From NCBI RefSeq assembly GCF_026571515.1, contig NW_026852332.1, positions 310,001-374,000 of the forward strand: a stretch of 64,000 nucleotides of DNA, in the 5' to 3' direction. Shown piece after piece: positions 18,314-64,000 of this stretch; position 1 is the first letter of the stretch; every line of letters begins with the position of its first letter. The position numbers and the translations under genes are program-made. The DNA comes from Ruditapes philippinarum (lineage: Eukaryota). The notes beneath the pieces were generated by a model, which was not told where the DNA came from, made no database searches, and worked only from the letters and a program-made list of their open reading frames with translations.

Positions 18314-18846
18314 GATTACATTAAATTACAGAGTGAATCGGATTTCACAAATTTATTAGAAGAGTCTGAATGATTCTGACCCTATACAAGCTGGGTACAA
18401 GGCATGCATTAAAACTAATGGTTATACTAACTTCTTCATGATTTTCTTCAAGAATCTTTGAAATAATGTTCATTTACAATAAATGTTTTACCAATGCAAA
18501 ATCCTTCCTCTTGGACAGGGGAAACCTGTAGAGTTTAGGGTATGCAACAGCCATTTGTTGCTGCCAATTTCAACTTTACCGCTTATAGCCACAGCAACCT
18601 ATCAATTAATTTTATTGAATTAATTTTTATTATCTGAAAAAAATCACAGCAATTTGCTGCGAAATTGCCTTTTTCTAATAAAGAATGCTCAGTATTTGAA
18701 GTTTTGGCGAGCTAATCAGGGCTGTCATGAATCTTTTGTTTCAAGTTTGGTAAGAAGTTTTTTAAAATAAATTTTTATTTGCTTCTTTCAGATTGACATT
18801 TTATCCACATAACAGTAGTTTAATTGAAACAGAAGCAGCAGCGGAA

Positions 18847-19645
18847 ATGGCAGCAAAACAGAAAGAAGAGGTAGTGGACAGTTCTGAAGATGAGGCTGAT
18901 AGTTTTGATAATTATGGTGTGTTCCAGAGTGACTATGAATTTAAATTTGTACAGGAGGGTAATGATAAGACAACACTTATGTTGCCTCCTGTTACATATG
19001 ACAGTATGGAAGTCAAGTATTTCAATGTTGAAATAGAGGTTGACAGTGAATTGCTTGTTAGTGCACTTGAAAAAGAAAAGACAGTGAATGGCACAACCAG
19101 ATTTTTTTTCCGAATAGCTAAATCTGGTGGGCAACTTGGTCAAGGGGATGATGGTGAGGCATATGAAAAGCTTGGTGAAGATGGTTATGATTATGGGGAA
19201 ATGAAAGACAAAGCTGAAGTACAAGCAAAAAAGCCAAAGGGAAAAAATCCTAAGGCCAGAGCTCCAATGGATGCTCACAACTACAGTAAACAAAAAGTAA
19301 TGGTGAAGTCTGCACCAACTATTAAAGTTGAAAGCGAAGAATTGCCAACAATGAATTTGGATGGTACACAACTTGATGATGAGGAGGAGGAAGAAGAAGA
19401 GGATGAAGGCGAAGATGTGGAAGATGATGGTGATGACGATGATGATATGGATGATCTTGAAGAAATTGAAATGTTAGGAGATGCGTCACTGGCAGAGGAT
19501 GACCAGACTGGTTCACCAAGAACACCAAAAAGGAAGAAACCCAAACAAGAACCAACATCATCTGGCAAGAAGAGACGAAAGTATGACAAGACAAATTATT
19601 ACAGTAAAGAATCTACCAACTTCTCTGTAGAGATGACAGATGAAG
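18847..19645 (+). CDS. Constant (shared) coding exon of a multi-isoform C2H2 zinc-finger gene: N-terminal domain, acidic tract, NLS
   Basis: Acceptor ttctttcag at 18791; first ATG in gaaATGg context at 18847 (frame is open upstream, so an earlier coding exon is possible). 266 codons with a D/E tract and PKRKK/KKRRK. Ends GAA G|GTTAGT, a phase-1 donor. Confidence 0.88.
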
Positions 19646-20385
19646 GTTAGTCAATCTGATTTTCTGTAACTTTTACATGAACATCTCAAGTCATTTCCTT
19701 AACACTTAGCCTGCTGACTCTGGGGAAAATTATGGCTAAAATTGCTAATTTGGGAAGTAAAAAAGCTGGTGTCAACTGTTAAGTTCAGATTTTTTGGAAG
19801 ACAGTTTTTCAGAAAAGATAATTAATACCACTTTCTTCTGCGCAAAGTTGAGGGTCAGTTTATAAAATAGATTTTCATAGACTTAATCTTGATAGTGTTT
19901 AAGGTTTTATAATTTTTATGGAAATGTCTTGGATGTTCTTTTAGTAATAGGTTTTTCCCAAATCCTACATATTGAAATTTTACACATAGCTAAATAATAA
20001 TGAAATAGAAAGTTATTCAAAGTTTAAAAAATGTTAATTTATCATTCTGATGTCATGACACCAGATTTCAAATATTTTGTTTCACCAATATAAATATATA
20101 GACAAGGAATTGGGAAAAAGCCTGTTTTTTACTGTAAAGGGGTAACCCTTGGGTCATTTCACACATGTCTGATGATTTTAGAATAACTCTCCTTGAAACT
20201 TCATTTAAGCCCTGTTTCTATTTATTACAATCATTTTTACATATGTATGCTTAAAAAATAACCGTCTGAATTATAAAAGAAAGCATGAACAGAGTCAAAG
20301 GTAATGAAATGTTAATAACTTAATGTGATTGCAACCAGTCTAAATATCAAACATATGAGGGTTGATTGAAATTCTGACTGGTTTC

Positions 20386-22971: not shown

Positions 22972-23630
22972 GAAAGACAAAATTCATCTGTAGGCATTGT
23001 GGGAAGATTTGTAATACAGCCGGAAACATGAGGGATCATTTAGTGATACACATAGACAAAAGAACATTTGCATGCGATGAATGTCCAGCTTGGTTTAAAA
23101 GTATGAAGGCTCTTCAGCGGCATTCTGTGCGTCACACTGTCAAGACTGTCAAGTGCGGTACTTGTAGTGCACTTTTTTACACAACGTCAGAATGTAAGAG
23201 CCATGCAAGTGTTCATATGGACGACAGAAAGTACATTTGTGATATTTGCAATCTAGCGTTCAATCATTCAACGTCTCTATCACGTCATAAAAAAGTTCAC
23301 GCGAGTAGGGGCGACCGGCAGCAGTTTCTATGTCATTTATGTACAGCAGTGTTCTACCGCAAAGACAATATTAGACGTCATTTGAAAAGTATTCATGGAT
23401 CGGATGAAGTACCGGAGCCTCGTAAACAAAACGCAGATAAGTGGATTAGGAACAAACGTATACAGACAAGAGGTAGAACAACTAAATTCTGGTCTGATCC
23501 TCATGATGTTGCACAAAAAGGATTTGATAAACTTGAGGACGATCAAAGTAAAGGGAAATCAAGTGTTTCAAAAGGACGTCGAAGTTTGACTCGGTGCAAA
23601 ATAAACAATACATTAGATTCCACAGAATGA
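22972..23630 (+). CDS. Alternative terminal exon A, 5 C2H2 zinc fingers
   Basis: ttcctttacag|GA AAG ACA AAA TTC ATC TGT; phase 1, in frame with the constant exon. Five CxxC…HxxxH units; ends TGA. Confidence 0.9.
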
Positions 23631-26059: not shown

Positions 26060-26817
26060 GTAATAAAGTTTTCAAGTGCAACACTTGTGATTACGTATCG
26101 AAATGGCCAGGCAACATGCGTGACCATGTTCGCGTCCATACTGGCGAAAAACCATTTGGCTGTGACAAATGCAGTAAGAGTTTTGCCAACCAATCTGGCC
26201 TACAGAAGCACAGTGTCATCCACTCCGACGAACGCCCACATATTTGTGACATCTGCGGCTTTGCTTTTAAGCTGAAACGCCAGCTGGTAAAGCACTATAG
26301 GCGTCACCTTACACCAGGGTCCATATTATGCCCGTATTGTGGTAAACGTTATTACTCCCAGTCGGAACTAAGACACCATATGCCAACACACACTGGTGAG
26401 AGGAAGTTTGAGTGCGATGTATGTAATAAGATGTTTGCCTCAGTATCTTCTTTGGGAAGACATAAGGCTCTACATTCAGGGGCGAGGTTTGAATGTCACA
26501 TCTGTGGGAATTTATCAATGCGAAAAGAGTACTGGCGTACTCACATGATCAAGTATCATCATTTTAGTGAGAACGATGAACTGCTGGCAAAGAAGATGCG
26601 ATTCAATCGCTTATATGATCAAACTGAGGAGATGAAAGTACCGAGTGTACATAAAATTAAAGTGGTAAAAGCAGAATCAATGAATGTCGAGGAAGGTGAA
26701 ATTATCGAAGGTGAAATTATTGAAGGCGAGCAAATAGCAGAAGTTCAGGAAATAGTGGCTGGACAGGAGATAAATGATGAAAATGTCCAGTATATAATTA
26801 GCCTGAACTATAATTGA
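26060..26817 (+). CDS. Alternative terminal exon B, 6 C2H2 zinc fingers plus acidic tail
   Basis: aattttcag|GT AAT AAA GTT TTC AAG TGC; phase 1. First finger begins upstream of the ORF-track Met; TGEKP linker; ends TGA. Confidence 0.92.
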
Positions 26818-29702: not shown

Positions 29703-31459
29703 TTGTCCCCCACCTTTTCGAAGAAAAAAGGGAGATATAGAAATAGGCTCCGTCCGTCTTTCCGTCCGTCCATCAGTCACACTTTCGTGTCGGGTCCATA
29801 ACTTTGTCATTTATTGAAGGAATCTGAAATAACTTAGCAAAAATGTTTGTTATAATAAGACGATGTGTCATGCGCAACAACCAGACCCCTACCTCCAGGG
29901 TCAAGGTCGCACTTGCTCATTCAAGGTCAGCATTGTCTATTTGAGGGTATATCTCGTGTCCGGTCCATATCGTTTTTACCTTTGAAGGGATTTTGTAAAT
30001 ACTTGCCACAATTGTTCACAATAATGAGAAGATGTGTCATGTGAAACAACTGGTCACCTACCTCCAAGGTCAAGGTCACACTTGGTGGTTAAGATTAACA
30101 TAGTCTGTTACAGGGTATATTTCGTGTCCAGTCCATAACTTTGTCATTGATCAAAGGAATTTGAAATAACTTGGCACAAATGTTTGTTATAATAAGACAA
30201 TGTGTCATGTGCAACAACCAGACCCCTACCTCCAGGGTCAAGGTCGCATTTGCTCATTCAAGGTCAACATTGTCTATTTGAGGGTATATCTCGTGTCCGG
30301 TCTATAACTTTCTTATCTTTGAAGGGATTTTGTAAATACTTGCCACAATTGTTCACAATAATGAGATGATGTGTCATGCGCAACAATCGGTCACCAACCT
30401 CCAAGGTCAAGGTCACACTTGGAGTTCAAAGATTAACATAGTCTGTTATAGGGTATATGTTGTGTCTGGTCCATAACTTTTTCTTATATGAAAGGATTTT
30501 GAAAATACTTGGCACAAATAGTCACTATAATAAGACGTGTCATGCGCAACACCAGCATCCCTACCTCCAAGGTCAAGGTCACATTTTGAGGTCAAAAATT
30601 AACATAGTCTTTTAAAGGGTATATATTGTGTCCAATGTAGAACTTCTTCATAGTTCAAGGGATTTTGAAATAACTTGGCACAAATAGTCACAATAATAAG
30701 ACAATATGTCAAGTACAACACCTGCACCCCTACCTCCAAGGTCAAGGTCACACTTAGAGGTCAAAATAACAGTCTGTTATATGGTATATTTTGTGTCCCC
30801 TCCATAACTTCTTCATAGATCAAGGGATTTTAAAAATACTTGGCACAAATAGTCACAATGATAAGATGATATGTCATGCGTTACACCAGTGTCCCTACCT
30901 CCAATGTCAAGGTCACATGTAGAGGTCAAAGATTTACATAGTCTGTTATAGGGTATATTTTGTGTCCAGTCCATAACTTTTTCATAGATCAAGGGATTAT
31001 AAAATACTTTGCACAAATAATCACAATAATAATTAGACGATATGTCAGGACCCTACCTCCAAGGTCACACTAAGAGGTCAAAGATGAACATAGTCTAATA
31101 GAGGGTATATTTTGTGTCCCATCTATAACTTCTTCATAGTTCAAAGGATTTTGAAAATACTTGGTACAAATAGTTACAATAATATGACGATATGTCATGC
31201 GCAACACATGCACCCCTACCTCCAAGGTCAAGGTCACACTTAGAGGTCAAAGCTCAACATGATAGATTTTTAAATTCAGTGTTTTATTTTATTTCTTTAA
31301 TAAATTTATTGTTGCATTTGCAGATCTAGCATTGATCATAATTTTGGACGGAAAGTCCTTAGATCCATACCTCAATCTTTTGAAAAAGCACAATTTTATG
31401 CTTCATATAAAACTTCCCCGAGGCGGGGGATGTTGGTAACTCTGTTACAAATTCTTGTT
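29703..31459 (+). mobile_element. HINE-like element with ~175-180 bp tandem array
   Basis: ttgtccccc 5' end, ccgt microsatellite, repeated cctacctccaaggtcaaggtcac units, ggggga subTIR, gtaac…gttac hairpin, cttgtt end. Confidence 0.85.
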
Positions 31460-32611: not shown

Positions 32612-33471
32612 TTTTATGCCCCCACAATGTGGGAGCATATAGCGTTGCACTTGTCCGTCCGTCCGTCAATCCGTCAGTCAGTCAGTCCGTCCGTCCGTCC
32701 GTACGTCCCGAAATCTTGTGAACGCAACTCCTCTTAAACCGGATGGCAGATTTTGCTTAAACTTACAGGGATGAACAACCTTAATGTGTAGATGGTAGTA
32801 AAGGAAGGAATTTTTGTTGCGACCAAATTTAACAGAATTATGGCCCTTTGTTGATTTTTTCACTATATACTATGTAGAAATTTTGTGAACGCAACTCCTC
32901 TTAAACCGGATGGCAGATTTTGCTTAAACTTACAGGGATGAACAACCTTAAGGTGTAGATGGTAGTAAAGGAAGGAATTTTCGCTGCGACCAAATTTTAC
33001 AGAATTATGGCCCTTTGTTGATTTTTTCACTATATACTATGTAGAAATTTTGTGAATGCAACTCCTCTTAAACCAGATGGCAGATTTTGCTTAAACTTCC
33101 AGGGATGAACAACCTTAATGTGTAGATGGCAGTAAAGGAAGGAATTTTTGCTGCAACCAAATTTAACAGAATTATGGCCCTTTGTTGATTTTTTCATTAT
33201 ATACTATGTAGAAATTTTGTGAACGCAACTCCTCTTAAACCGGATGGCAGATTTTGCTTAAACTTACAGGGATGAACAACCTTAATGTGTAGATGGTAGT
33301 AAAGGAAGGAATTTTTGCTGCGACCAAATTTAACAGAATTATGGCCCTTTGTTGATTTTTAGTTTTCAACTTGTGGCACATGTAGTCCAAAAAATATTTG
33401 ACCTAGAGTCATAAGATTGACAGAACAGTGGCGTGTGGGGGCATCAGTGTCCTATGGACACATTTCTAGTT
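32612..33471 (+). mobile_element. HINE-like element with 167 bp tandem array (about 4 near-identical copies)
   Basis: ttatgccccca 5' end, GTCC/GTCA microsatellite, gtgaacgcaactcc recurring every 167 bp, gggggcat subTIR, tgtcc…ggaca hairpin, ctagtt end. Confidence 0.9.
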
Positions 33472-34578
33472 TGTCTTTGTAATGTTTTTAACACAAAGGA
33501 ACATAAATGATTTCAAACAGTCCAATATTTTTAATTGTTGTAAAATTATAGATTAGATAAGTTATTGTAATTTTAAGGGTGGATCTGCATTTTGGTTGCT
33601 GTCAATATTCACATGTAAATTAGAAAATAAACTTCTTCAAAATTGATTTGTATATTGTTCTGCAAATGTAACATCAACCTTGCATACCAAAGTATAAAAA
33701 GTATTTTAATCAGCAAAGATGGTTTACTAGCAGTAAACGTATTGTATATCTCTTTTAATTTAATAATTTCAAATACAGTTCTTGAAAATGTTATAAATAA
33801 GTGCCTTTTTAGCTCCCATCTTATACATGATATTTCACCCAATTGCTTTATTTCAAGACCATTCATCAATTTTATGAAAATTTTTAAAATATGTACCGAC
33901 TGAATAGCAAACAGGGCAGGCCATGGTCAGATGGCATAAATGTGCAAGCTGATCTTGGGTCTGCACTGGATGCTTGGGTAGATTTTGTAGCTGCCAGCAG
34001 GCAAATTACATGAACATCGGTTTATGTTCCTGAAGATAATATTTCAATACTTACAGATAATATATGTGGGTTTTGCAAACCCAGTATAGTTGCATAGGCT
34101 TCAAGATTTTAGAGGAACCCAAGAGTATCTTGAAATTATAGACGAAGCTTTATATAGAAATATTTCATTTCTCAATGGAAAGTTTGCATGTCAGAGGAGC
34201 ATTCTTTATTTGATAACTAATATAAGGGTGCCAGTTTTACTTGAACAGGAATTTGTGACTTACAATTTAGTTCATTTTACATAATATTATCCTTAAGTTT
34301 TTTGAAACTCAATACTGATAGCCATGGGCTTATTTTAGATATTTGGTATGTAGAATTGCCTAGTAGGCGACTATTACAGTTGCATAACTCTTCCCCTTGG
34401 TTTAAAGAATGTCTCAGCCCAAGGTCACTTTTATATTTGACTTGTATTGGAACAGCTTGAGAATTGTCACCAAATGGCTACAACCTGGTATTATTATTGT
34501 AATGTGGACATTCGTAATTTACAAAAGCTCAGAATCCTTATGTTCTGTGTACTTTTGCATTCTCTTTAAATACCGTTT

Positions 34579-34745
34579 CAGTGTCTAGAAATAGGGGGGC
34601 TTTTTATCGAAAAATGAGAATTCTTTACATTTGTTGATATTTTTCCTTCTTTCTGTATGTAAACCCCCCCCCTGCCTCTGAAAAAATAGGGGGTGGGGCT
34701 CTAAAAATGAGTGAATCCCCCATTCCCCTCCTAGAATAAACACTG
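34579..34745. mobile_element. CAGTG-TIR MITE with 6 bp TSD, present in all three triplicated units
   Basis: cagtgtcta…tagaataaacactg; CCATTT flanks (left flank clearer in the copies at 38702 and 42800). Confidence 0.7.
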
Positions 34746-35337
34746 CCATTTACGTCACATATAGTTTTATGTGTTGAAAAATAACCTTTCACATATTATA
34801 ATAAGATAATGTTGAACCTCACTTACTTGAATTATAAACCATCTTCTGGTTGAAGATAAGGTATGGATTCATTGTTTAACTTTGATTTGACTTTAGCCAA
34901 ACTTACAAATAAAGAGAGGAATGGTCCTCTAGAAAGCTTGTTTAAACTATGGGCATTGAGTAGTTGTGTATGCTGGTCCTACTGATTGACTTGATTGAAT
35001 GATATCAACTAATGATCTCCATTATAGAAAATATGACCTTTTTGTAATTGTGCTCAGGTGAACGAAATATATAAGACCGATTATAGTTCTTGTATGACAG
35101 TTATTTAACCCTAAAAAACACACAAAAATTATGTACGATTGAATGAAGTTGTAGTTTCTGCACAAAATCTATGAAAAAAACACAAAAAAACAAAAAAACA
35201 CAAAAAAAAACAACAACAAACAAAACAAACTTTTATTTAAACCAACAAAACAACTGGATTTGAGCGTATGTGTCCATGTTTTATTTTTTTACGCACATCT
35301 TTTATTGAGATCTATCTTAAAATTATTTTCCTTTCAG

Positions 35338-35903
35338 GCAAGAGATTCTTCAAGTGCACACATTGCAAATATAATACACCAATAATCGGAAATATGAAGA
35401 TACATGTACGGAGACACACGGGAGAACGTCCTTTCTCTTGTGACATGTGCATCAAAACGTTCACGTGTGGGGCCACTCTAAAGCTTCATAAGAGAACCAT
35501 TCACTGTGAGGAACGTAGCGAAATCTGTGAATATTGTCACGCCTCTTTCAAAACAAGACAGAATCTCAAGATGCATCAGAAGCGTCATTTTGATATTAAG
35601 AAGCACCTTTGTCCATTTTGTGGCAAAAGAATGGCCAATAAAATGGCTATGGAAGAACATGTGAACACACATACAAAGTCACAGAAGTACATGTGCGGAA
35701 TATGCGACAAAATAGTTTCAAGTGACTCGGCCATGAAGCGGCATATGCTATTACATACCGGTGGAAATGTTAAGTGCCATTTATGTTCGAAAACTTTTGT
35801 TCGGAAAGAAATCTGGAGAAAACATATGATTAATGAACATAAATATAGCGGCAATGAGGACATTTTGGGAAAAAGGCAAAATCAAGTGCAGAAAGTAATA
35901 TAG
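35338..35903 (+). CDS. Alternative terminal exon C, 6 C2H2 zinc fingers
   Basis: ttttcctttcag|GC AAG AGA TTC TTC AAG TGC; phase 1; TGERP linker; ends TAG. Confidence 0.92.
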
Positions 35904-38900
35904 ATGTTTTGAGATTTCTTTGATGAAGCTTTAATCGCATGTGCATTGATGTTGAAATTATTTGAGTATAAGTCTGTACTGTGTTTCGTAATGTGATGGT
36001 AGAAGATAACTAAAGCGGACAGACAATTAGACTTATCGGTTATAATATCAAGAAAAAGCAGTGCTAAACTTAAGGTTCAGACCAGATTTCATCTCCATGG
36101 AAACAGACTTAAGTTCATTCAATTAATTGATGAGATTAATAAATCAATTTAAAAAAAACCTGTTAAACACGTTCATTTGAATGAAAGATTGATCTGTCTT
36201 AGTCATTAAAAAGTGGAAACATTACCATATTAAAGACGTTTACTAAAGTTTTCAAATAAGCAGAACGAAAACTTTGCATGGTCTTTGTAATTGTCTTGGA
36301 TTTTTTTTAGAAATTGTCTTCATTTTTAAGATATCATATTGTAATACAATAAATGGAATATCGTCCAAAATTTAGTTTGATTGGATAGTATTTGTTGTGA
36401 ATGGTGTTGATGAAATACCCTCTTGAAAATATATTGGTAATTTGTAATTGTCTGCTGAAGATAATCCATGAACAATTTTATATATTGTATCTTGTTTACT
36501 TGACATTGTTTAGGTAAATGTGTTTTGTAAAAAGTTCAAATACACAGGAAGCATTCGCTTTGTTGTTTTAATGTAATGATTTTTTTATTTACAGTCAAAT
36601 TTGCTGTGAAAGACCAGTTTTTGAGAAAAATATTTAATGTTGGTGATAGGCCATCTGTGGCCAAATAACCATGTCCTGAAATTGTAACGTGGTCGGCGCT
36701 TCTTTAGAATGTGCTTTGGTGCTCATCTGACTTTGATGTTAACTATTTAAAAAATTTTTTCATAATATCTTTGAAGTATTGAAGATTTTGTGTATTAAAG
36801 AATCAGATTTGGTGTATTTATAGGCATTTCAGTTACACGATGTTGATGTTAATGATTTTCAAAGTTCATTTGGCACAACAGATCTTTTCTTTCCTTCTTC
36901 AGTGGGCGGGTAGTTAATCAAATTTCTCAATATATCGCCTTAACTGGCACAATAATTATTCAACAGTTGATCTGTTTTTTTTCGGCCGTAGGCCGTCTGA
37001 TTTCACATTGACTTCCTCTAAAATTAACAGTAAAGATATGAATATAGGCAGAATTTTCTATAGCCTGACCGTTTGATACTTTAGAAGAGCTTCCGTTATA
37101 GGTAGAGGTATGTTCGATTGCACGATGGCAAGAAGTGTTGGACAGAATAAATATAAAACACAATAATGATATTTTCTAGATGTTTTCTAACAGCTTTTCA
37201 ATAATATATGAAATCGCCTTTTTGATACTTCTGTGTTCGATTGGGTTTCTCATCTGTTCTAGTCATTATATTCTCTTCTCGAACCGGGCATAAGACGATT
37301 GAAACGAACTTTAGACTAATTTACAGTTGCAAAATTCTCCGTGGAAGTAGTGTACAGTATCTACTAAATTTTTGTTTTATTATAAATCCCTAGTCAATTC
37401 AAATTCCATTTTGATTAAAATCAAATAATGTAAGTAATATTGTTTAAATCTAAGATGACAATTAATTGGGAAAAACATTGCAGGTAAAAATGAACTGAAA
37501 TAGAACTATTGAAGACGAATAAAATCTTCTGTTTGCGGTTAGCGTGGTTAGTAGTAGCTTATCCTATGCAAGTTAACAAGTTTGACTTCGGCCGAGTATC
37601 TTTTTAAAGATACTTCTTGTTAAAACATTGTTTTAAAATCTGTACAATATTTTGTAGGCACAGGCTGCCTCTTCTTCTTACACAATAACATCCTCAAGAA
37701 AAGGGTAATACATTTAAAAGAATCGCTTTCTGATATTTAAGTGTAAGAGGCATCCGACCTTATTCTTAGTCATACCGAATGTCTATGCAATATGCTAAGC
37801 GAATTTGTACTAGCCTCTTAATATATGGGAGCAGTGGCAAATAAAATGAAACATTCGAAAAGCTTGATTTTACGTAATTATAGATCTTTCATTTTGTAAC
37901 TTGTATAATTTATAGGACAATATTATCCTATTAAGCGCCAGAGCAAGAAAAGAGGGAAACAACATCGCGGAACAATGTCAACATTTTTTTTGTGGTAAGT
38001 CGTCAATATTTAAGGTCATTATGGTCATTTGTATATGTTGTAAAAGTTTATTTTAATAGCAGATCTTGGGTCTGCACAGGATGAATGGGTAGATTCTGTA
38101 GCTGCCAGCAGGCAAATAACATGAACATCGGTTTATGTTCCTGAAGATAATATTTCAATACTTACAGATAATATATGTGGGTTTTGCAAACCCAGTATAG
38201 CTCTATAGCCTTCAAGATTTTAAGAGGAGACCAAGAGTATCTTGAAATTATAGATAAAGCTTCATATAGAAATATTTCAATTCTCAATGGAAAATTTGCA
38301 TGTCAGAAGATCATCCAGTCAGATGACATTTTTATTTGATAACTAATATAAGGGTGCCAGTTTTACTTGAACAGGAATATGTGACTTACAATTGAGTTCA
38401 TTTACATAATATTATCCTTATTTAAAACTCAATACTGATAGCCATGGGCTTATGTTTTAGATATTTGGTATGTAGAATTGCCTAGTAGACCACTATTACA
38501 GTTACATAACTCTTCCCCTTGGTTTAAAGAATATCTCAGCCCCCAGGTCACTTCTTTTATTGACTTGTATTGGAATATCACCTTTAGAATTGTCACCACT
38601 GGTATTATTATTGTAATGTGGACCTTTGTAATTTACAAAAGCTCAGAATCCTTGTCTGTGTACTTTTGCATTCTCCAAGATAAGGCCTTTAAATACCATT
38701 TCAGTGTCTATTCTAGGATTTGAGAAATAGAGGGGCTTTTTATCGAGAAATGAGAATGTTTTACATTTGTTGATATTTTTACTTCTTTCTCTATGTAAAA
38801 TTTCCCCCCTGCCTCTGAAAAAATAGGGGGGGGATTCTAAAAAAAATGAGTGAATCCCCCATCTCTCCTAGAATAGACACCAGTGACATTTACGTCACAT

Positions 38901-39455
38901 AGTTTTATGTGTGGAAAAATAACCTTTTACATAAGACAATGTTGAACCTCACTCACTTGAATTATTAGCCATCTTCTGATTATAGATAAGGTATGGACTA
39001 ACGGCTTAACTTTAATTTGACTTTAGCCAAACTTACAAATAAAGAGAGGAATGGTCCTCTAGAAGGCTTGTTGAAACTATGGGCAGTCAGTAATTTTGTA
39101 TGCTGGTCCTACTGTTTGACTTGATTGAATAATATCAACTAATGATCTTCATCATAGAAAGATCATAGAAAATATGACCTTTTTGTAATTGTGCTCAGGT
39201 GAGTGAAATATATAAGACCGATTATAGTTCTTGTATGACAGTTATTTAACCCTAAAAATCCAAAGAAAATTATGTACGATTGAATGAAGTTGAAGTTTCT
39301 GCATAATATCTATGAAAAAAAAAACACACAAAAAAACTTATTTAAAACAACTAGACAACTGAATTTGAGCAAATATTTCCCTGTTTTAACGGAAGTCCGT
39401 AAATCTTTACGCACATCTTTTATTCAGATCTATCTTAAAATTATTTTCCTTTCAG

Positions 39456-40021
39456 GCGACAGATTCTTCAAGTGCACACATTGCAAATATAATTCACCAA
39501 AAATCGGAAATATGAAGATGCATGTACGGAGACACACGGGAGAACGTCCTTTCTCGTGTGACATGTGCATCAAAACGTTCACGTGTGGGGCTACTCTCAA
39601 GCTTCATAAGAGAAGCATCCACTGTGAGGAACGTAGCGAAATCTGTGAATATTGTCACGCCTCTTTCAAAACAAGACAGAATCTCAAGACGCATCAGAAG
39701 CGTCATTTTGATATTAAGAAGCACCTTTGTCCATTTTGTGGCAAGAGAATGGCCAATAAAATGGCTATGGAAGCGCATGTGAACACGCATACAAAGTCAC
39801 AGAAGTACATGTGCGGAATATGCGACAAAATGGTTTCAAGTGACTCGGCCATGAAGCGACATATGCTATTACATACCGGTGGAAATGTTAAGTGCCATTT
39901 ATGTTCGAAAACTTTTGTTCGGAAAGAAATCTGGAGAAAACATATGATTAATGAGCATAAATATAGCGGCAATGAGGACATTTTGGGTAAAAGGCAAAAT
40001 CAAGTGCAGAAAGTAATATAG
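39456..40021 (+). CDS. Alternative terminal exon D, 6 C2H2 zinc fingers (paralogue of C)
   Basis: ttttcctttcag|GC GAC AGA TTC TTC AAG TGC; phase 1; 8 amino-acid differences from C; intact ORF. Confidence 0.92.
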
Positions 40022-43000
40022 ATGTTTGAGATTTCTTTGATGAAGCTTAAATCGCATGTGAATTGATGTTGAAATTAATTTGAGTATAAGTCTGTACTGT
40101 GTTTCATTATGTGATGGTAGAAGATAACTAATGATGCGGACAGACAATTAGACTTATCGGTTATAATATCAAAAAAAGCAGTGCTACACTTAAGGTTCAG
40201 ACTAGATTACATTTCCATGGAAACAGACTTAAGTTCATTCAATTAAGTGATGGGATTAATGAATCAATTAAAAATAAACTGTTAAACACGCTCATTTGAA
40301 TCAAAGATTCATTAAAAAAGTGGATACATTACCATATTAAAGACGTTTACTAAAGTTTTCAAATAAACAGAACTTAAACTTTGCATGGTCTTTGTAATTG
40401 TCTTGGATTTTTTTAGAATTTGTCTTCATTTTTAAGAGTTCATATTGTAATACAATAAATGGAATGTCGTCCAAAATTTAGTTTGATTGGATGGTATTTG
40501 TTGTGAATGGTGTTGATGAAATACCCTCTTAAAAATATATTGGTAATTTGTAATTGTCTGCTGAAGATAATCCATGAACAATTTTATATATTGTATCTTG
40601 TTTACTTGATATTGTTTAGGTAAATGTGTTTTGTAAAAAGTTCAAATACACAGGAAGAATTCGCTTTGTCATTTTAATGTATTGATTTTTTATTTACAGT
40701 CAAATTTGCTGTGAAAGACCAGTTTTTGAGAAAAATATTTAATGTTGGTGATAGGCCATCTGTGGCCAAATAACCATGTCCTGAAATTGTAACGTGGTCG
40801 GCGCTTCTTTAGAATGTGCTTTGGTGCTCATCTGACTTTGATGTTAACTATTGAAATTTTTTTTTGTAATATCTTTGAAGTATTGAAGATTTTGTGTATT
40901 AAAGAATCAGATTTGGTGTATTTATAGGCATTTCAGTTACACGATGTTGATGTTAATGATTTTCAAAGCTCATTTGGCACAACATATCTTTTCTTTCCTT
41001 CTTAAGTGGGCGGGTAGTTAATCAAATTTCTCAATATATCGCCCCAACTGGCACAGTAATTATTCAACAGTTGATCTGGTTGTTTTTCGGCCGTTGGCCG
41101 TCTGATTTCACCTTGACTTCCTCTAAAATTAACAGTAAAGATATGAATATAGGCAGAATTTTCTATAGCCTGACCGTTTGATACTTTAGAAGAGCTTCCG
41201 TTATAGGTAGGGGTATGTTCGATTGCACGATGGCAAGAAGTGTTGGACAGAATAAATATAAAAACACAATAATGATATTTTCTAGATGTTTTCTAACAGC
41301 TTTTCAATAAATATATGAAATCGCCTTTTTGATACTTCTGTGTTCGATTGGGTTTCTCATCTGTTCTAGTCATTATATTCTCTTCTCGAACCGGGCATAA
41401 GACGATTGAAACGAACTTTAGACTAATTTACAGTTGCAAAATTCTCCCTGGAAGTAGTGTACAGTATCTACTAAATCTTTGTTTTATTATAAATCCCTAG
41501 TCAATTCAAATTCCATTTTGATTAAAATCAAATAATGTAAGTAATATTGTTTAAATCTAAGATGACAATTAATTGGGACAAACATTGCAGGTAAAAATGA
41601 ACTGAAATAGAACTATTGAAGACGAATAAAATCTTCTGTTTGCGGTTAGCATGGTTAGTAGTAGCTTATCCTATGCAAGTTAACAAGTTTGACTTCGGCC
41701 GAGTATCTTTTTAAAGATACTTCTTGTTAAAACATTGTTTTAAAATATGTACAATATTTTGTAGGCACAGGCTGCCTCTTCTTCTTACACAATAACATCC
41801 TCAAGAAAAGGGGTAATACAGAATCGCTTTCTGATATTTAAGTGTAAGAGGCATCCGACCTTATTCTTAGTCATACCGAATGTCTATGCAATATGCTAAG
41901 CGAATTTGTACTAGCCTCTTAATATATGGGAGCAGTGGCAAATAAAATGAAACATTCGAAAAGCTTGATTTTACGTAATTATAGATCTTTCATTTTGTAA
42001 CTGGTATAATTTATAGGACAATATTATCCTATTAAGCGCCAGAGCAAGAAAAGAGGGAAACAATATCGCGGAACAATGTCAACATTTTTTTTTGTAGTAA
42101 GTCGTCAATATTTAAGGTCATTATGGTCATTTGTATATGTTGTAAAAGTTTATTTCAATAGCAGATCTTGGGTCTGTACTGGATGAATGGGTAGATTCTG
42201 TAGCTGCCAGCAGGCAAATAACATGAACATCGGTTTATGTTCCTGAAGATAATATTTCAATACTTAAGATAATATATGTGGGTTTAGCTAACCCAGTATA
42301 GGTGCAAAGCCTTCAAGATTTTAGAGGAAACCAAGAGTATCTTGAAATTATAGACGAAGCTTTATATAGAAATATTTCATTTCTCAATGGAAAGTTTGCA
42401 TGTCAAAAGAGCGTCCAGTCAGATGACATTTTCATTTAATAACTAATATAAGGGTGCCAGTTTTACTTGAACAGGAATTTGTCACTTACAATTTAGTTCA
42501 TTTACATAATATTATCCTTATTTGAAACTCAATACTGATAGCCATGGGATTATATTTTAGATATATGGTATGTAGATTTGCTTAATAGTCGACTATTAAA
42601 ATTGCATAACTTCCCCTTGGTTTAAAGAATGTCTCAGCCTTCAGGTCACTTCTTTTATTGACTTGTATTGGAATATCACCTTAAGAATTGTCACCACTGG
42701 TATTATTATTGTAATGTGGACCTTTGTAATTTACAAAAGCTCAGAATCCTTGTCTGTGTACTTTTGCATTCTCGAAGATAAGGCCTTTAAATACCATTTC
42801 AGTGTCTATTCTAGGATTTGATAAATAGGGGGGCTTTTTATCGAGAAATGAGAATGTTTTACATTTGTTGATATTTTTACTTCTTTCTCTATGTAAAATT
42901 TCCCCCCTGCCTCTGAAAAAATAGGGGGGGGGGGGGATTCTAAAAAAAATGAGTGAATCCCCCATCCCTCCTAGAATAGACACCAGTGACATTTATGTCA

Positions 43001-43548
43001 CATAGTTTTATGTGTGGAAAAATAACCTTTTACATAAGATAATGTTGAACCTCACTCACTTCAATTATTAACAATCTTCTGATTATAGATAAGGTATGGA
43101 CTAACGGTTTAACTTTAATTTGACTAGAAGTGAGGAATGGTCCTCTAGAAGGCTTGTTGAAACTATGGGCAGTCAGTAATTTTGTATGCTGGTCCTACTG
43201 ATTGACGTGATTGAATAATATCAACTAAATTATAAATGATCTTCATCATAGAAAGATCATAGAAAATATGACCTTTTTGTAATTGTGCTCAGGTGAGAAA
43301 TATATAAGACTGATTATAGTTCTTGTATGACAGTTATTTAACCCTAAAAATCCAAAGAAAATTATGTACGATTGAATGAAGTTGAAGTTTCTGCATAATA
43401 TCTATGGAAAAAAAACACACACACAAAAACTTATTAAAATGAACTAGACAACTGAATTTGAGCAAATATTTCCCTGTTTTAACGGATGTCCTTGATTTTT
43501 TACGCACATCTTTTATTCAGGTCCATCTTAAAATTATTTTCCTTTCAG

Positions 43549-44114
43549 GCGACAGATTCTTCAAGTGCACACATTGCAAATATAATTCACCAAAAATCGG
43601 AAATATGAAGATGCATGTACGGAGACACACGGGAGAACGTCCTTTCTCGTGTGACATGTGCATCAAAGCGTTCACGTGTCGGGCCACTCTAAAGCTTCAT
43701 AAGAGAAGCATCCACTGTGAGGCACGTAGCGAAATCTGTGAATATTGTCACGCCTCTTTCAAAACAAGACAGAATCTCAAGACGCATCAGAAGCGTCATT
43801 TTGATATTAAGAAGCACCTTTGTCCATTTTGTGGCAAGAGAATGGCCAATAAAATGGCTATGAAAGCGCATGTGAACACACATACAAAGTCACAAAAGTA
43901 CATGTGCGGAATATGCGACAAAATGGTTTCAAGTGACTCGGCCATGAAGCGACATATGCTATTACATACCGGTGGAAATGTTAAGTGCCATTTATGTTCG
44001 AAAACTTTTGTTCGGAAAGAAATCTGGAGAAAACATATGATTAATGAGCATAAATATAGCGGCAATGAGGACATTTTGGGAAAAAGGCAAAATCAAGTGC
44101 AGAAAGTAATATAG
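43549..44114 (+). CDS. Alternative terminal exon E, 6 C2H2 zinc fingers (paralogue of C/D)
   Basis: ttttcctttcag|GC GAC AGA TTC; phase 1; 4 amino-acid differences from D; intact ORF. Confidence 0.92.
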
Positions 44115-44767
44115 ATGTTTGAGATTTCTTTGATGAATCTTAAATCGCATGTGAATTGATGTTGAAATTAATTTGAGTATAAGTCTGTACTGTGTTTCAT
44201 AATGTGATGGTAGAAGATAACTAATGATGCGGAAAGACAATTAGACTTATCGGTTATAATATCAAAAAAAAAAAAGTGCTACACTTAAGGTTCAGAAGAC
44301 TAGATTACATTTCCATGGAAAAAGACTTAAGTTCATTCAATTAAGTGATGGGATTAATAAATCAATTAAAAAATAAACTGTTAAACACGCTCATTTTAAT
44401 CAAAGATTCATTAAAAAGTGGATACATTACCATATTAAAGACGTTTACTAAAGTTTTCAAATAAGCAGAACGAAAACTTTGCATGGTCTTTGTAATTGTC
44501 TTGGATTTTTTTAGAATTTGTCTTCATTTTTAAGATTTCATATTGTAAAACAATAAATGGAATGTCGTCCAAGATTTAGTTTGATTGGATAGTATTTGTT
44601 GTGAATGGTGTTGATGAAATACCCTCTTGAAAATATATTGGTAATTTGTAATTGTCTGCTGAAGATATTCCATGAACAATTTTATATATTCTATTTTGTT
44701 TACTTGATATTGTTTAGGTAAATGTGTTTTGTAAAAAGTTCAAATACACAGGAAGCATTCGCTTTGT

Positions 44768-46045
44768 TATGCCCCCGCCATGTAATGGCCGGGGCATATA
44801 GTGTTACCCTGTTCCGTCCTTCCGTCATTCCGTCCTTCCGTCATTCCGTCATTCTGTCATTCCGTCATCATCAGTTTCCGTTCATTATCTTAGTAACGGT
44901 TGCATATATTCAACTCAAACTTGACATATGGATATGTCATTAGAAAATACAGGTCAAGTTCGAATTTGGTCATGTTTCGATGATTTTTTGGCAGAGTTAT
45001 GCCCCTTTTACTTTGAAAATAATATGAAATTTTCAGTTTCCGTTCATTATCTCCCCAACGGTACAACACATTCAACTCAAATTTGACATATGGATATGTC
45101 ATGAGAAAATACAGGTCAAGTTCGAATTTGGTCATGGTTCGATGATTTTTGGCAGAGTTATGCCCCTTTTACTTTGAAAATAATATGAAATTTTCAGTTT
45201 CCGTTCATTATCACCCCAACGGTATAACACATTCAACTCAAATTTGACATTAAATATGTCTTGAGAAAATACAGGTCAAATTTGAATTTGGTCATGGTTC
45301 GATGATTTTTGGCAGAGTTATGCCCCTTTTACTTTGAAAATAATATGAAATTTTCAGTTTCCGTTCATTATCTCCCCAACGGTACAACACATTCAACTCA
45401 AATTTGACATATGGATATGTCATGAGAAAATACAGGTCATGTTTGAATTTGGTCATGGTTCGATGATTTTTTGGCAGAGAAATGCCCTTTTCGCTTTGAA
45501 AATGATATGAAATTTACAGTTTCTGTTCATTGTCTACCCAACAGTGTTACATATTCAACTCAAATTTGACATATGGATATGTCAAAGGAATGGGCAGGTC
45601 AAGTTGGAATTTGGTCATGGTTCGATGATTTTTTGGCAGAGTTATGTCCCTTTCACTTTGAAAATAATATAGATACATCTTCGGAATAAGCAGTTTAAGT
45701 TTGAATTTGGTCGTGGTTCAATGATTTTGGACAAACTTATCTTTCTTGAATATTGGAAAAATTTTGAACTTTCAGTTTCAGCACTCATACTTTTGTTGAA
45801 ATGTATGTAGCCATTATTTTGGCTACAAATATGAAATATGCTATTTTCAAAAGGTTAAGACTGAATAATTTCAGTGCCTTGAACATTGTATGAAAATGGT
45901 TTGTGTTAACATTGAAAAGTTTTAAGGGCTTTGAACTTAAAATGAAAACAATAATTTGTGCAAACAAATTTGGAACTAAATATTATAACATCTGAAATTT
46001 TGGCTGCATGTGGGGGCATCCGTGGCATGATGACACATTTCTAGT
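44768..46045 (+). mobile_element. HINE-like element inserted at TT downstream of exon E
   Basis: Absent from the paralogous sites in units 1 and 2 (gctttgttgtttt). tatgcccc…ggggcat subTIRs, ccgt microsatellite, ~155-160 bp array, ctagt end. Confidence 0.92.
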
Positions 46046-47521
46046 TGTTTTAATGTATTGATTTTTTATTTACAGTCAAATTTGCTGTGAAAGACCAGTT
46101 TTTGAGAAAAATATTAAATGTTGGTGATAGGCCATCTGTGGCCAAATAACCATGTCCTGAAATTGTAACGTGGTCGGTGCTTCTTTAGAATGTGCTTTGG
46201 TGCTCATCTGACTTTGATGTTAACTATTGAAAAAACTTTTTTGTAATATCTTTGAAGTATTGAAGATTTTGTGTATTAAAGAATCAGATTTGGTGTATTT
46301 ATAGGCATTTCAGTTACACGATGTTGATGTTAATTATTTTCAAAGCTCATTTGGCACAACATATCTTTTCTTTCCTTCTTAAGTGGGCGGGTAGTTAATC
46401 AAATTTCTCAATATATCGCCTTAACTGGCACAGTAATTATTCAACAGTTGATCTGGTTGTTTTTCGGCCGTAGGCCGTCTGATTTCACTTTGACTTCCTC
46501 TAAAATTAACAGTAAAGATATGAATATAGGCAGAATTTTCTATAGCCTGACCGATTGATACTTTAGAAGAGCTTCCGTTAAAGGTAGAGGTATGTTCAAT
46601 TGCGCGATGGCAAGAAGTGTTGGACAGAATAAATATGAAAACACAATAATGATATTTTCTAGATGTTTTCTAACAGCTTTTCAATAAATATATGAAATCG
46701 CCTTTTGATACTTCTGTGTTCGATTGGGTTTCCCATCTAAGCTGTTCTAGTCCTTATATTCTCTTCTCGAACCGGGCATAAGACTTTAGACTAATTTACA
46801 GTTGCAAATTCTCCGTGGAAGTAGTGTACAGTATCTACTAAATCTTTGTTTTATTATAAATTCCTAGTCAATTCAAATTCCATTTTGATTAAAATCAAAT
46901 AATGTAAGTAATATTGTTTACATCTAAGATGACAATTAATTGGTAAAAACATTGCAAGTAAAAATGAACTGAAATAAAACTATTGAGGACGAATAAAATC
47001 TTCTGTTTGCGGTTAGCATGGTTAGTAGTAGCTTATCCTATGCAAGTTAACAAGCTTGACCTCGGCCGAGTATCTTTTTAAAGATACTTCTTGTTAAAAC
47101 ATTGTTTTAAAATATGTACAATATTTTGTAGGCACAGGCTGCCTCTTCTTCTCACACAATAACATCCTCAAGAAAAGGGGTAATACATTTTAAAAAGATT
47201 GCTTTCTGATAATTAAGTGTAAGAAGCATCCGAGCTTATTCTTAGTCATACCGAATGTCTATGCAATACGCTAAGCGAATTTGTACTAGCCTCTTAATAT
47301 AAGGGAGCAGTGGCAAATAAAATGAAATTTTCGAAAATCTTGATTTTGCGTAATTATAGATCTTTAAGTTTGTAACAAGTATAATTTATTAAACAATTTT
47401 GTCCTATTAAGTGTCAGAGAAAGAAAAGAGGGAAACAATATTGCGGACCAAGTAAACATTTTTTGTGGTAAGTCGTCAATGTTTAAGGTCATTATGGTCA
47501 TTTGTATATGTTGTAAAAGTT

Positions 47522-47834
47522 TTTATCACACACCCGTGCCGATTTTGCGACTCCGTAAATATGGTATTGCACGGCCTTGCATATATTTTGACGTGACGTC
47601 ATTAGCGTTATACACGCGCTAAATGTTAGCGTTTTACTATAGGCGCGTCAATGAAATATGACTCTTATTTCACTTTAAACGGTCTTTATTTTGGGTATTG
47701 AAAATAATATAATCAGTAGTTCATACAATTTATTGCACTCGTGATAAAAAATATGCTCGCATGCTAATATATATTTTATTCAACTCGTGCAATAAATTCA
47801 GTATGGAACTTACACTCATTCAATATCCTCTATA
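47522..47834. mobile_element. ~310 bp non-autonomous element without TIRs or clear TSD (possibly Crypton-like)
   Basis: Defined by empty sites in units 1 and 2 (aaagttta|tt..aatagc); ends tttatcacac … aatatcctctat; internal inverted repeat tttattgcac/gtgcaataaa. Confidence 0.7.
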
Positions 47835-47979
47835 TTTTAATAGCAGAAGATAAGAAAAGTTTATTTGGCCGCAGTCTTTATTTTGGTTTGTAAATATATC
47901 TTTGATGATCTTTGATATTCACCTTTGTCGTTATAAACCAAGCACCTGGTTGATCTAGTTGTTGTTTATTTCACTGCAG

Positions 47980-48533
47980 GAGAGAGAATTTTCAAATGCA
48001 GATTTTGTGCAAGAGTGACGAAACGTGCCAGCGATATCAAACGCCATATAAGAACGCACACAGGCGAACGACCTTATGCGTGTGAAAAGTGCAATAACCA
48101 GTTTGCTAGTCTTTCTAACCTTATTGCCCATAAGGAAACTCATTCCAAGGAACGTTTATACATATGCGATATTTGCGGACTCAGTTTCCGGACAAAGAAG
48201 ACTATGAAATCCCACTATAGGCGTCATGTGCAACCTAGGAAATTTCCGTGCATGCATTGCAGTTTTTGTGCCACTTCAAACAGCGCTCTCACGAACCATA
48301 TGAATTTTCATACTGACAGAAAAAGTCAAACTTATGTCATCTGTCATCCCAAATTCCACTGTAAATTATGCTCTTATTCACATATGCAGGAGGAATACTT
48401 GAGGCATCATCAGATACAATGTCATGGTTTTACTGGAAATGAACAAATAATTGCAAAGAAGAATATCAAGGTGCAAATTCGTTACAAAGTTAACAATTCT
48501 TCGTCTGTCTCGGATAATTTCGGCCAGCAGTAG
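47980..48533 (+). CDS. Alternative terminal exon F, 5 C2H2 zinc fingers (fifth-position finger collapsed)
   Basis: tttatttcactgcag|GA GAG AGA ATT TTC AAA TGC; phase 1; TGERP linker; ends TAG. Confidence 0.9.
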
Positions 48534-51498: not shown

Positions 51499-52073
51499 GT
51501 AAAAGAATGTACAAATGCGACTTTTGTGAATACTCGTCGAATCAGACAACAAACATTGTAAACCACGTTCGGAGACATACCGGAGAAAGACCGTATGGAT
51601 GTAAGCTCTGTAGCGTACGATGCTATACGTCCGTTGAATACAAGAAACATCTCGAGACTCATAATACGAAGAATTTGAAAGAATGCCATCTCTGCGGCCG
51701 CTCTTTTAAAACGGCCCATACGTTAAGATACCACATACAAAAACATATTAAACGTGGGGCGCATATTTGTGATGTGTGTGGAAAAGATTTTGAATACCCT
51801 TCTGCATTGCAGACCCATTATGTAACTCACACAGGTGAGAAAAGATATGAATGTGGCGAATGCTTTGAAAAGTTTAGCCACAGGAATTCGCTGATGCGAC
51901 ATTTAAGAATCCATGACGGTGACGGATTTAAGTGTCACATATGCGATAAAACGTTCACAAGAAAGGACTACTGGCGTAAGCATTTCATTAAAGACCATGA
52001 CTTTACTGGCAATGAAGATTTCCTTGCAAAGAATTGGTATGGAAAGGTTGATCGTCTTTACAAAACTGAGTGA
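51499..52073 (+). CDS. Alternative terminal exon G, 6 C2H2 zinc fingers
   Basis: tctctccatttacag|GT AAA AGA ATG TAC AAA TGC; phase 1; TGERP and TGEKR linkers; ends TGA. Confidence 0.92.
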
Positions 52074-60112: not shown

Positions 60113-60859
60113 ATTTTATTCTATATCCAATATTTATATTGTGTAACTCTAATTTTATATGCTATACCATAATATTTATTCAATGTTGCTGAATATTTGT
60201 TCATCATAAAAAATATTTGTGTCCGATAATTTTCTATATGTATGTTCTATAATTGAAAATATATATTGTATAATTAAATTATTTATTGTATAGATCTACT
60301 GAAACATATTTATTTGATAATTATTAGCATATTAAGCCCGCCTATAAAGTAAGCACAAAGGTCTGATAAAGCGTTATCATCCTGATTAAACTAGACTATA
60401 GTGTAGTGGAAATGACCAGCGTTCCTGTGAATGTCATTCAAAGAAGACCCTCAAAAGTTTTACAAAATCGAATTTGCAACGATATTGGTCGAATTGTGTT
60501 TCAACTGTTGACACGAGAAATTGATGCGTTTTTAACGAAATTTCTTAAGACTTTGTATAAATAAATAACAAATGGCAGGTCCAAATAGCGACTGTAAAAC
60601 ATGAAGTAGTTGCTCTTATTTTCCTTGAGTTAAATCTCTGTGCCTTTAAGCCTTATATAGCAGTGAAGATGTTCCTTTTAATTAATACAATCTAGATTTT
60701 TTTTAAGAAGGTGGCGTTCATTTTGTAACCGCTAACTGTACATGATATCAATTCCTAAAAGATCGAGCTCTCTCAAGCGCGATTTTGTCACACACACCAG
60801 AACTGATTTACATTTACCACTGTGTGAACGGTTGGCTCTAAATAATGATTTTTTCTCGA

Positions 60860-63727: not shown

Positions 63728-64000
63728 GTTAAGGTATTAGGACCCTAATGGGCACTATCAGGAACTAAAAAATTGACATCATAAGTCAGATGTATACCTT
63801 AAAGTACACCTTTATGCAAAATTTAAACAAAGTTTACCGTACGGAAATCAAGTTATGGCCTTTTTTCTGAACTCAAGCTAGGATGTTATGAGGGCCCTTT
63901 TTTAGAAAGTAAGAACCTTTAAATAATCTGCAATAACATTCTAATGAAAAATGTTTTCCCATTAATTTTTGGTAAGAAACAAATAGTACCATTCAGCTAA

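What the first reader, a model, noticed from the sequence alone, without database searches (positions are those of the whole stretch)
33951..47847. The cassette is growing by tandem duplication of exon-only units, with a microhomology breakpoint
Seen: exons C, D and E sit in three ~4.1 kb head-to-tail copies. Each holds acceptor, finger exon, 3' UTR and a conserved AATAAA (36348, 40454, 44552) followed by GT-rich sequence, i.e. a self-contained terminal-exon module. The novel junction aatagcaGAtcttggg joins the unique right end (tagcaga|agat, ~47847) to the unique left start (aagctga|tctt, ~33951) through imperfect microhomology agc(a/t)ga. The same junction appears at ~38061 and ~42163. Inference: one microhomology-mediated duplication followed by unequal crossover; new isoforms arise without duplicating the promoter or constant exon.
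Basis: partly seen in the sequence, partly recalled or inferred. Interest (0 to 1): 0.75.

Follow-up and report, generated by a model that had tools for sequence, protein, structure and literature searches.

The report
Duplicated zinc-finger end-exon in clam gene
A Manila clam gene-regulator gene is followed by a row of zinc-finger end exons that are likely used as alternatives, and one of them has been copied head-to-tail with its flanking DNA (a real duplication; the third copy in this assembly is less certain), which likely gives the gene new DNA-reading versions without copying the whole gene.

Summary
Observation largely confirmed. Three head-to-tail units lie at 33953-38063, 38064-42165 and 42166-47847. 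The third is 5.7 kb, not 4.1 kb (two insertions), and coding exon is only 14% of a unit. The window is a Ruditapes philippinarum locus: one constant acidic exon and seven phase-1 terminal exons of 5-6 C2H2 fingers; five match RefSeq isoform models, and Mercenaria has the same layout. The novel junction stands in 3 of 3 DNA runs laid, so the duplication is real. The middle unit is a chimera (copy-3-like 5', copy-1-like 3'; 0 of 1000 permutations), as unequal crossover predicts, but so would a haplotype switch in assembly; contig depth fits two copies in two runs and is ambiguous in the third. The microhomology is weak: 2 bp perfect (chance 0.19), 5 of 6 imperfect (0.036). New here: 4 of 8 amino-acid differences between exons C and D fall on base-contacting helix positions (p 0.01-0.04, post hoc), and the constant region has no BTB or other known domain. 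A lola-like design on an unrelated scaffold, with an ordinary duplication mechanism caught young.

The parts
18792..19647 (+). Constant coding exon (ATG 18847; 267 codons; conserved beta-rich stretch, acidic tract, basic end); phase-1 donor GAAG|gttagt
   Evidence: 100% identical to the N-terminus of RefSeq isoform proteins; no Pfam family
22972..23630 (+). Terminal exon A, 5 fingers
   Evidence: identical to tail of P0004, isoform X2
26060..26817 (+). Terminal exon B, 6 fingers
   Evidence: acceptor and frame; 75% identical to Mercenaria X2; no Ruditapes isoform protein for it was retrieved
33953..38063 (+). Unit 1 (4111 bp); left unique boundary 33951-33953
35338..35903 (+). Terminal exon C, 6 fingers; candidate poly(A) signal 36348
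   Evidence: identical to tail of P0016, isoform X4
38062..38063 (+). Novel junction 1 (2-bp overlap GA)
   Evidence: joint 38061->33951 in X1, X3, X10 and 2 reads of X23
38064..42165 (+). Unit 2 (4102 bp), chimeric: like unit 3 from about 38544 to 41082, like unit 1 from 41177 on
39456..40021 (+). Terminal exon D, 6 fingers; candidate poly(A) signal 40454
   Evidence: identical to tail of P0003, isoform X5
41082..41177 (.). Inferred exchange interval in unit 2 (crossover or assembly switch)
   Evidence: best maximum-chi-square break between unit-1 positions 36977 and 37072, 0 of 1000 permutations, mapped
42164..42165 (+). Novel junction 2
42166..47847 (+). Unit 3 (5682 bp); right unique boundary 47847
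43549..44114 (+). Terminal exon E, 6 fingers, intact; candidate poly(A) signal 44552
   Evidence: no matching protein in the cluster of D
44770..46047 (.). 1278-bp insertion in unit 3 with an internal array of about 160-bp repeats; mobile-element-like; absent from contigs of X1 and X3 that span this place
   Evidence: (table 8, records 5 and 21)
47529..47839 (.). 311-bp insertion in unit 3 with a 28-bp hairpin, ending 8 bp before the right breakpoint
47980..48533 (+). Terminal exon F, 5 fingers
   Evidence: identical to tail of P0002, isoform X6
51499..52073 (+). Terminal exon G, 6 fingers
   Evidence: identical to tail of P0020, isoform X3

Best explanation
A clam zinc-finger gene has one constant coding exon followed by seven finger-encoding end exons that are likely spliced to it as alternatives; one end exon with its flanking DNA was duplicated once by a non-homologous join, and the third copy in this assembly likely arose later by unequal crossover, while the two older copies differ at residues predicted to contact DNA. 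Steps. (1) Shown: layout, phase-1 donor and acceptors, intact frames. Inferred from RefSeq models (5 of 7 exons) and conservation in Mercenaria: each mRNA uses one end exon and its own poly(A) site; choice most likely by competition between cleavage after a near exon and splicing to a farther one (known for other alternative last exons; untested here). About 0.9. (2) Shown: a single 4.1-kb tandem duplication with a fixed junction exists in three data sets. About 0.97. It carried acceptor, exon, 3' UTR and candidate poly(A) signal, so the copy could work at once without a promoter (inferred). The break used at most a 2-6 bp overlap; end joining or template switch cannot be told apart (microhomology causal about 0.5). 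(3) Inferred: misaligned copies recombined within 41082-41177, giving a 3-copy allele that is probably not fixed. About 0.6 that it is real on one chromosome. Short exchanges between copies also occurred in the first 470 bp. (4) Shown: C and D differ at finger 1 positions -1 and +6, finger 3 +6 and finger 4 +6. Inferred: altered binding preference, about 0.5.
For: Layout and isoforms: (tails of P0004, P0016, P0003, P0002, P0020 identical to exons A, C, D, F, G); 7 Mercenaria isoform proteins with one constant part; an unnamed 1915-bp contig encodes a constant-type region joined to a B-like finger tail (P0023). Junction in 3 of 3 DNA runs from three studies. Unit 1 versus units 2/3 differ by 9-10% in the upstream intron, whereas unit-1-type contigs in the runs differ from unit 1 by 2-4 letters in 188-429 (about 1-2%; table 8), so C and D are paralogues, not alleles. 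Independent JGI proteins carry the C set (P0018, 7 of 8 diagnostic residues) and the D residue at finger 4 +6 (P0017). Chimera: informative sites where unit 1/2/3 is the odd copy are 114/27/35 in 34421-36977 and 5/5/44 in 36978-38063; 0 of 1000 permutations; long indels follow the same switch. Coding exon more conserved than intron (3.4% against 9.0%; pN 0.022, pS 0.088 for C-D). 4 of 8 C-D changes at -1/+2/+3/+6 positions, p 0.010; 0.042 with structural residues removed from the pool. In X1 the junction contig (8.26) and the D-like exon contig (9.0) are about twice the unit-1-type contigs (3.1, 4.5).
Against: In X3 and X10 the junction contig (17.5; 12.3) is no deeper than unit-1-type contigs (16.8-19.6; 11.5-12.5), which fits two copies; in X1 the same numbers also fit two copies with haplotype-split contigs (flank bins 5.9 and 6.9), and the tool warns that these depths are not copy numbers. 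Unit 2 differs from its two 'parents' by 1.0% (3' part) and 1.6-3.3% (most of the 5' part), the range of alleles. No E-type protein in the cluster. The RNA run (about 4% read) gave almost no depth over the coding exon and no listed splice or poly(A) end. Contact-site enrichment is post hoc, rests on 4 changes, and is absent for D-E (0 of 4) and weak for C-E (4 of 12, p 0.05-0.17). Some 'unit-1-only' letters are missing from unit-1-type contigs of other runs, so part of the C-D difference is polymorphism.
Confidence: 0.58

Rival explanations
1. The array has two copies; the middle unit is an assembly chimera made by switching from the second copy of one haplotype to the first copy of the other, so D and E are alleles.
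For: Predicts the same chimera and the same doubled junction. Depth in X3 and X10 fits two copies. Unit 2 is 1.0% from unit 1 in the 3' part and 1.6-3.3% from unit 3 in most of the 5' part. Contigs of X1 and X3 with unit-3 letters lack the 1278-bp insertion, so it is polymorphic. No E isoform protein.
Against: X1 depths of about 1:2:2 (unit-1-type 5' contigs: D-like exon: junction) fit three copies, and high-copy repeat bins put X1 at about 0.23 of X3's depth, i.e. about 4 per copy (this ratio is biased low in shallow runs). Units 2 and 3 differ by 7.3% in their first 500 bp, high for alleles. How the window was assembled is not known to me.
Confidence: 0.3
2. Three copies are older and the mosaic comes from gene-conversion tracts (unit 1 and 2 homogenised at the 3' end, 2 and 3 in the middle), not from one crossover.
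For: The first 470 bp are roughly equidistant among all three (odd-copy counts 8/16/17; second break at 34420, 0 of 1000); unit 2's distances to its two parents are unequal (1.0% against about 3%).
Against: Two of three DNA runs look two-copy, which an old triplication would not give; one crossover explains the main switch with one event.
Confidence: 0.08
3. The duplication is real but neutral: the extra exon is redundant or rarely used, and the contact-site changes are chance under relaxed constraint. (Not exclusive of the others; confidence is for this point alone.)
For: [quoted passage not shown]
Against: Frames, acceptors and the AATAAA are intact in all copies; pN/pS about 0.25 for C-D; exon 3.4% against intron 9.0%; both C and D types recur in independent proteins.
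Confidence: 0.4

Closest known systems
Drosophila lola (also broad, tramtrack, fruitless): BTB-zinc-finger loci with alternative last exons
   Same: A common N-terminal region joined to one of many last exons that encode zinc fingers and have their own 3' UTRs; lola has 20, 17 with fingers (PMC10551640, passages read); isoforms bind different sequences (PMC3668361, passages read).
   Different: No BTB domain: the 267-aa constant part has no Pfam family, no solved relative and no fold match, and its relatives were found only in proteins of clams or unnamed sources. End exons carry 5-6 fingers; the characterised Lola isoforms use a pair. Trans-splicing (known for lola, PMC1947980 legend read) not testable here. 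It works like lola; it is not a lola member.
Tandem exon duplication, e.g. Dscam variable exon arrays
   Same: Isoform repertoire enlarged by copying an exon inside a gene; staggered homologous recombination is cited for Dscam (title in the reference list of PMC3342872; paper not read); birth-and-death of exons (PMC3236188, passages read).
   Different: Here the unit is a 4.1-kb terminal module with its own candidate poly(A) site, the original non-homologous junction is still readable, and copies show exchange, whereas no conversion was found among Daphnia Dscam exons (PMC3236188).
Two-step tandem array origin, e.g. yeast CUP1
   Same: First duplication by non-homologous recombination, later copy-number change by unequal crossover (PMC4232551, abstract and start of introduction read).
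   Different: The unit is part of a gene, so copies add isoforms, not dosage.
RefSeq isoform models XP_060604114/122/133/140/147 (Ruditapes) and XP_053408886-890 (Mercenaria)
   Same: Same locus and its orthologue; the alternative ends are already in automatic annotation.
   Different: Given generic 'zinc finger ...-like' names; exon E, the duplication and the constant domain are not described in them.

Membership tests
lola-type BTB-ZF alternative-last-exon loci | N-terminal BTB/POZ domain in the common region | tested here: not met
   No Pfam family in 18847-19647 or outside the fingers in 5 full-length isoforms scanned; RefSeq models start at this ATG. A further upstream coding exon is not excluded by RNA.
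lola-type BTB-ZF alternative-last-exon loci | Array of last exons with same-phase acceptors, zinc fingers and stops downstream of one donor | tested here: met
   7 phase-1 exons with 5-6 fingers
lola-type BTB-ZF alternative-last-exon loci | Each last exon joined to the common exon in mRNA | tested here: inconclusive
   RefSeq models for 5 of 7 exons and contig protein P0023 support it; the RNA run laid had too little depth and the stretch did not include the donor
lola-type BTB-ZF alternative-last-exon loci | Isoforms with different DNA-binding specificity | not testable with these tools
   Only helix residues compared
lola-type BTB-ZF alternative-last-exon loci | Trans-splicing of common and variable exons | not testable with these tools
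   Needs allele-resolved RNA; all exons here are on one strand, so cis-splicing suffices
Tandem exon duplication | Head-to-tail copies inside one gene with a novel junction present in sequencing data | tested here: met
Tandem exon duplication | Copies are paralogues, not alleles | tested here: met
   For C versus D/E: 9-10% intron divergence against about 1-2% between unit 1 and unit-1-type contigs. For D versus E see next row.
Unequal-crossover expansion | Chimeric middle copy and three copies on one chromosome | tested here: inconclusive
   Chimera met; three copies in cis not shown; depth fits two copies in 2 of 3 DNA runs
Microhomology-mediated duplication (MMBIR/MMEJ) | Breakpoint overlap above chance, no long flanking homology | tested here: inconclusive
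   2 bp perfect, chance 0.19; 5 of 6, chance 0.036, on ends that have since diverged; no long homology between the two flanks

The most novel reading that the evidence does not exclude
Heterodont clams independently evolved a lola-like transcription-factor library on a clam-restricted, undescribed N-terminal domain, and in the Manila clam it is changing now: a terminal finger module duplicated, was re-tuned by selection at base-contacting residues, and segregates as 2- and 3-copy alleles, so individuals differ in their set of DNA-binding isoforms.
Probability: 0.25. Interest if true: 0.68.

Novelty: new variant of a known kind. Interest (0 to 1): 0.42.

Why it matters
How alternative-last-exon arrays such as lola are built is usually read from old, saturated exons. 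Here the birth of one exon is still legible: breakpoints, unit content, later exchange and the first residue changes. If C and D bind different sequences, it is a small, testable case of a new transcription-factor specificity arising without gene duplication, and it shows the lola design on a non-BTB scaffold in molluscs. The mutational steps themselves (non-homologous duplication, unequal crossover) are ordinary, and the isoforms are already in automatic annotation.

Tried and rejected
No whole genome was held, so no genome-wide copy or repeat check. Metagenome contigs: 30 pattern matches, none a relative of exon D; 0 matches to the junction motif. Constant domain: 0 Pfam families, 0 PDB sequence matches at E up to 5, no usable Atlas hit, model of mean pLDDT 67 from 8 sequences with no Foldseek match at E<=0.001 and no VIA-align match at Z>=2 among 48161 chains; a weak model shows nothing about novelty of the fold. 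Homodimer prediction gave no answer (score 0.01). Of 12 profile hits, two (P0024, P0028) were dropped as short repeat matches. A docking-site/selector pairing between the first 1.2 kb of the intron after the donor and 400 nt before 5 acceptors (A, B, C, F, G; D and E left out as copies) was not supported: 22 of 300 random draws reached the best score. No further finger motifs beyond the 7 exons in six frames. Homologous recombination between flanking repeats as first step: rejected, no long flank homology, although a short high-copy element lies at about 33878-33925, 26 bp left of the breakpoint (loose ends). Single-copy artefact: rejected by the joint in 3 of 3 DNA runs. Only 4 of the 24 runs listed were laid, on unit 1 plus 473 bp of left flank only; 286 letter rows, 71 indel rows, 6 joints and 1237 loose ends were not shown, so E-specific letters and spliced read ends could not be checked. 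Earlier findings: none near or by sequence.
Full report
What the window is. The window is 33% GC with many short satellites. The frame at 18766-19650 is 100% identical over its coding part to RefSeq proteins of Ruditapes philippinarum named as isoforms X2, X5 and X6 of one gene; X3 and X4 came from cluster look-ups. The constant exon has its ATG at 18847 and a phase-1 donor at 19647. Seven downstream exons (A 22972, B 26060, C 35338, D 39456, E 43549, F 47980, G 51499) start AG|G in the same phase, encode 5-6 C2H2 fingers and end in a stop; no other finger motif is in the window. The tails of five RefSeq proteins are identical to A, C, D, F and G. These are computed models, not experiments. 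No protein for B was retrieved (X1 was not among the hits), and none for E among 4 of 4 members of the cluster that holds C and D.

The repeat. Units run 33953-38063 (4111 bp), 38064-42165 (4102) and 42166-47847 (5682); pairwise differences are 4.6% (1-2), 5.8% (1-3) and 3.9% (2-3). Unit 3 is longer because of insertions of 1278 and 311 bp. Coding sequence is 566 of 4111 bp. No part of the constant exon is repeated.

Is the duplication real? I laid three DNA runs from three studies and one RNA run (4 of the 24 listed) on 33480-38063. The joint 38061->33951 ('goes back 4111', 2 letters fit both sides) stands in X1, X3 and X10 and in 2 reads of X23. Unit-1-type contigs differ from unit 1 by 2-4 letters in 188-429, while unit 1 differs from units 2 and 3 by 9-10% in the upstream intron. 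Two JGI proteins carry the C and the D residue sets. So at least two paralogous copies exist in the species. One of the DNA runs may be the window's own source; the other two would still be independent.

Is the third copy real? Unit 2 is a mosaic. Sites where unit 1, 2 or 3 is the odd copy number 114/27/35 in 34421-36977 and 5/5/44 in 36978-38063; the switch lies between unit-1 positions 36977 and 37072 (41082-41177 in unit 2), with 0 of 1000 permutations as strong. Unequal crossover between copy 2 of one chromosome and copy 1 of another gives exactly this. So does a haplotype switch during assembly of a two-copy array. Unit 2 is 1.0% from unit 1 in the 3' part and 1.6-3.3% from unit 3 over most of the 5' part, but 7.3% in the first 500 bp, where all three are about equidistant, a sign of short exchanges. 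Contig depth, which the tool says is not a copy number, gives junction/unit-1-type ratios near 1 in X3 (17.5 against 16.8-19.6) and X10 (12.3 against 11.5-12.5) and near 2 in X1 (8.26 against 3.1 and 4.5; D-like exon contig 9.0). X1 can also be read as two copies with haplotype-split contigs (flank bins 5.9 and 6.9). Contigs of X1 and X3 carrying unit-3 letters span the site of the 1278-bp insertion without it, so that insertion is polymorphic. I put the third copy at about 0.6 real in the source animal and unlikely to be fixed.

The breakpoint. Left flank, junction and right end share GA exactly and 5 of 6 letters with one mismatch. Among about 20000 random position pairs, 19% had at least 2 bp of perfect overlap and 3.6% a match of 5 or more with at most one mismatch. 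The ends have since diverged by several percent, so an original 6-bp overlap is possible but not shown. There is no long homology between the flanks, so the first step was non-homologous; this two-step path is the one described for yeast CUP1 arrays (PMC4232551, abstract and start of introduction read).

What the copies changed. C and D differ at 8 of 187 residues; four are at finger 1 -1 (I/K) and +6 (I/M), finger 3 +6 (M/T) and finger 4 +6 (E/A). Positions -1, 2, 3 and 6 are the canonical recognition positions (PMC3668361, passages read). The chance of 4 or more is 0.010 over all codons and 0.042 with zinc ligands, core and linker residues removed; dropping the one difference not seen in P0018 gives 0.006 and 0.024. 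The test is post hoc and small. Overall the exon is constrained (pN 0.022, pS 0.088; exon 3.4% against intron 9.0%). D and E differ at 4 residues, none at these positions (one at +1, one at +5). RNA did not help: X23, about 4% read, had near-zero depth over the coding exon and similar low depth in introns.

History of the array. Mercenaria mercenaria has seven isoform proteins with the same constant part. In a tree of 15 tails, C, D and E group together (100/99) as sister to Mercenaria X5 (100/99); A pairs with X6 (100/100), B with X2 (87/91), F with X3 (85/93), G with X7 (90/89); X1 and X4 pair with each other (96/98) and have no partner in this window. So the array is old, only the C module is young, and turnover looks like birth and loss. 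Related constant regions occur in Mactra antiquata (P0015), Mya arenaria (P0025, named isoform X3; whether its isoforms differ at the 3' end was not checked) and unnamed contigs; several read through into intron at the same place, and one 1915-bp contig joins it to a B-like tail (P0023). The profile search over 1.84 billion representatives gave 12 hits, two of which I dropped as repeat matches. The conserved stretch has no Pfam, PDB or fold match.

Mechanism and comparison. Most likely each transcript splices the constant exon to one end exon and is cleaved behind it; such choices are often set at the poly(A) step (PMC10551640, passages read); untested here, and a pairing-based selector was not supported. 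The design works like Drosophila lola (PMC1947980, PMC3668361, PMC10551640, passages read) but fails membership for lack of a BTB domain. Tandem exon duplication is common, in 7-17% of metazoan genes (PMC3342872, passage read), and Dscam arrays evolve by birth and death (PMC3236188, passages read). Searches for a description of this layout in molluscs gave 0 papers; looser searches listed 15 of 63 and 15 of 237 papers, none with the missing term (listings only). The library lacks most subscription papers and no supplements were read. Earlier AI notes of this scan report lola-like arrays on other scaffolds and in other animals (unchecked), which lowers the surprise of the layout.

Verdict. Observation mostly right; duplication real; third copy and microhomology open; contact-residue divergence and a non-BTB scaffold are the added value. 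New variant of a known kind, interest 0.42.

Noticed in passing
window 10321-10996, minus strand: Exons of a coatomer subunit zeta gene (24-aa exon matches COPZ1 structures at E about 2e-7); GC skew flips near 12000, so it may share a divergent promoter with the finger gene, whose first exon was not located.
   Followed up: partly
window 18898-19134: A 79-residue beta-rich stretch is highly conserved among clam homologues (36 invariant columns in 8 sequences) with no family, structure or fold match; a candidate undescribed domain.
   Followed up: partly
window 36999-37621 and copies in units 2, 3: About 600 bp of each unit is a high-copy genomic repeat (summed depth in the thousands), as are short bits at about 33878-33925 and 34589-34725; the duplication carried old mobile-element remnants.
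   Followed up: no
window 2331-3540, 29783-31260, 32614-33470, 44770-46047, 55079-56147, 60825-63732: Elements with internal arrays of 145-200-bp repeats, some with shared end motifs; they resemble the satellite-bearing Helentron-type elements of bivalves (label recalled, not tested).
   Followed up: no
window 47980-48533: Exon F has a degenerate fifth-finger region and the longest branch in the tree (1.54); it may be decaying or evolving fast.
   Followed up: no
window 52732-52760 and 52771-53308: A 29-nt piece of exon G coding sequence appears again about 680 bp after its stop (seen by eye), next to a perfect 165-bp direct repeat (52771-52935 and 53144-53308): another small local duplication.
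   Followed up: no
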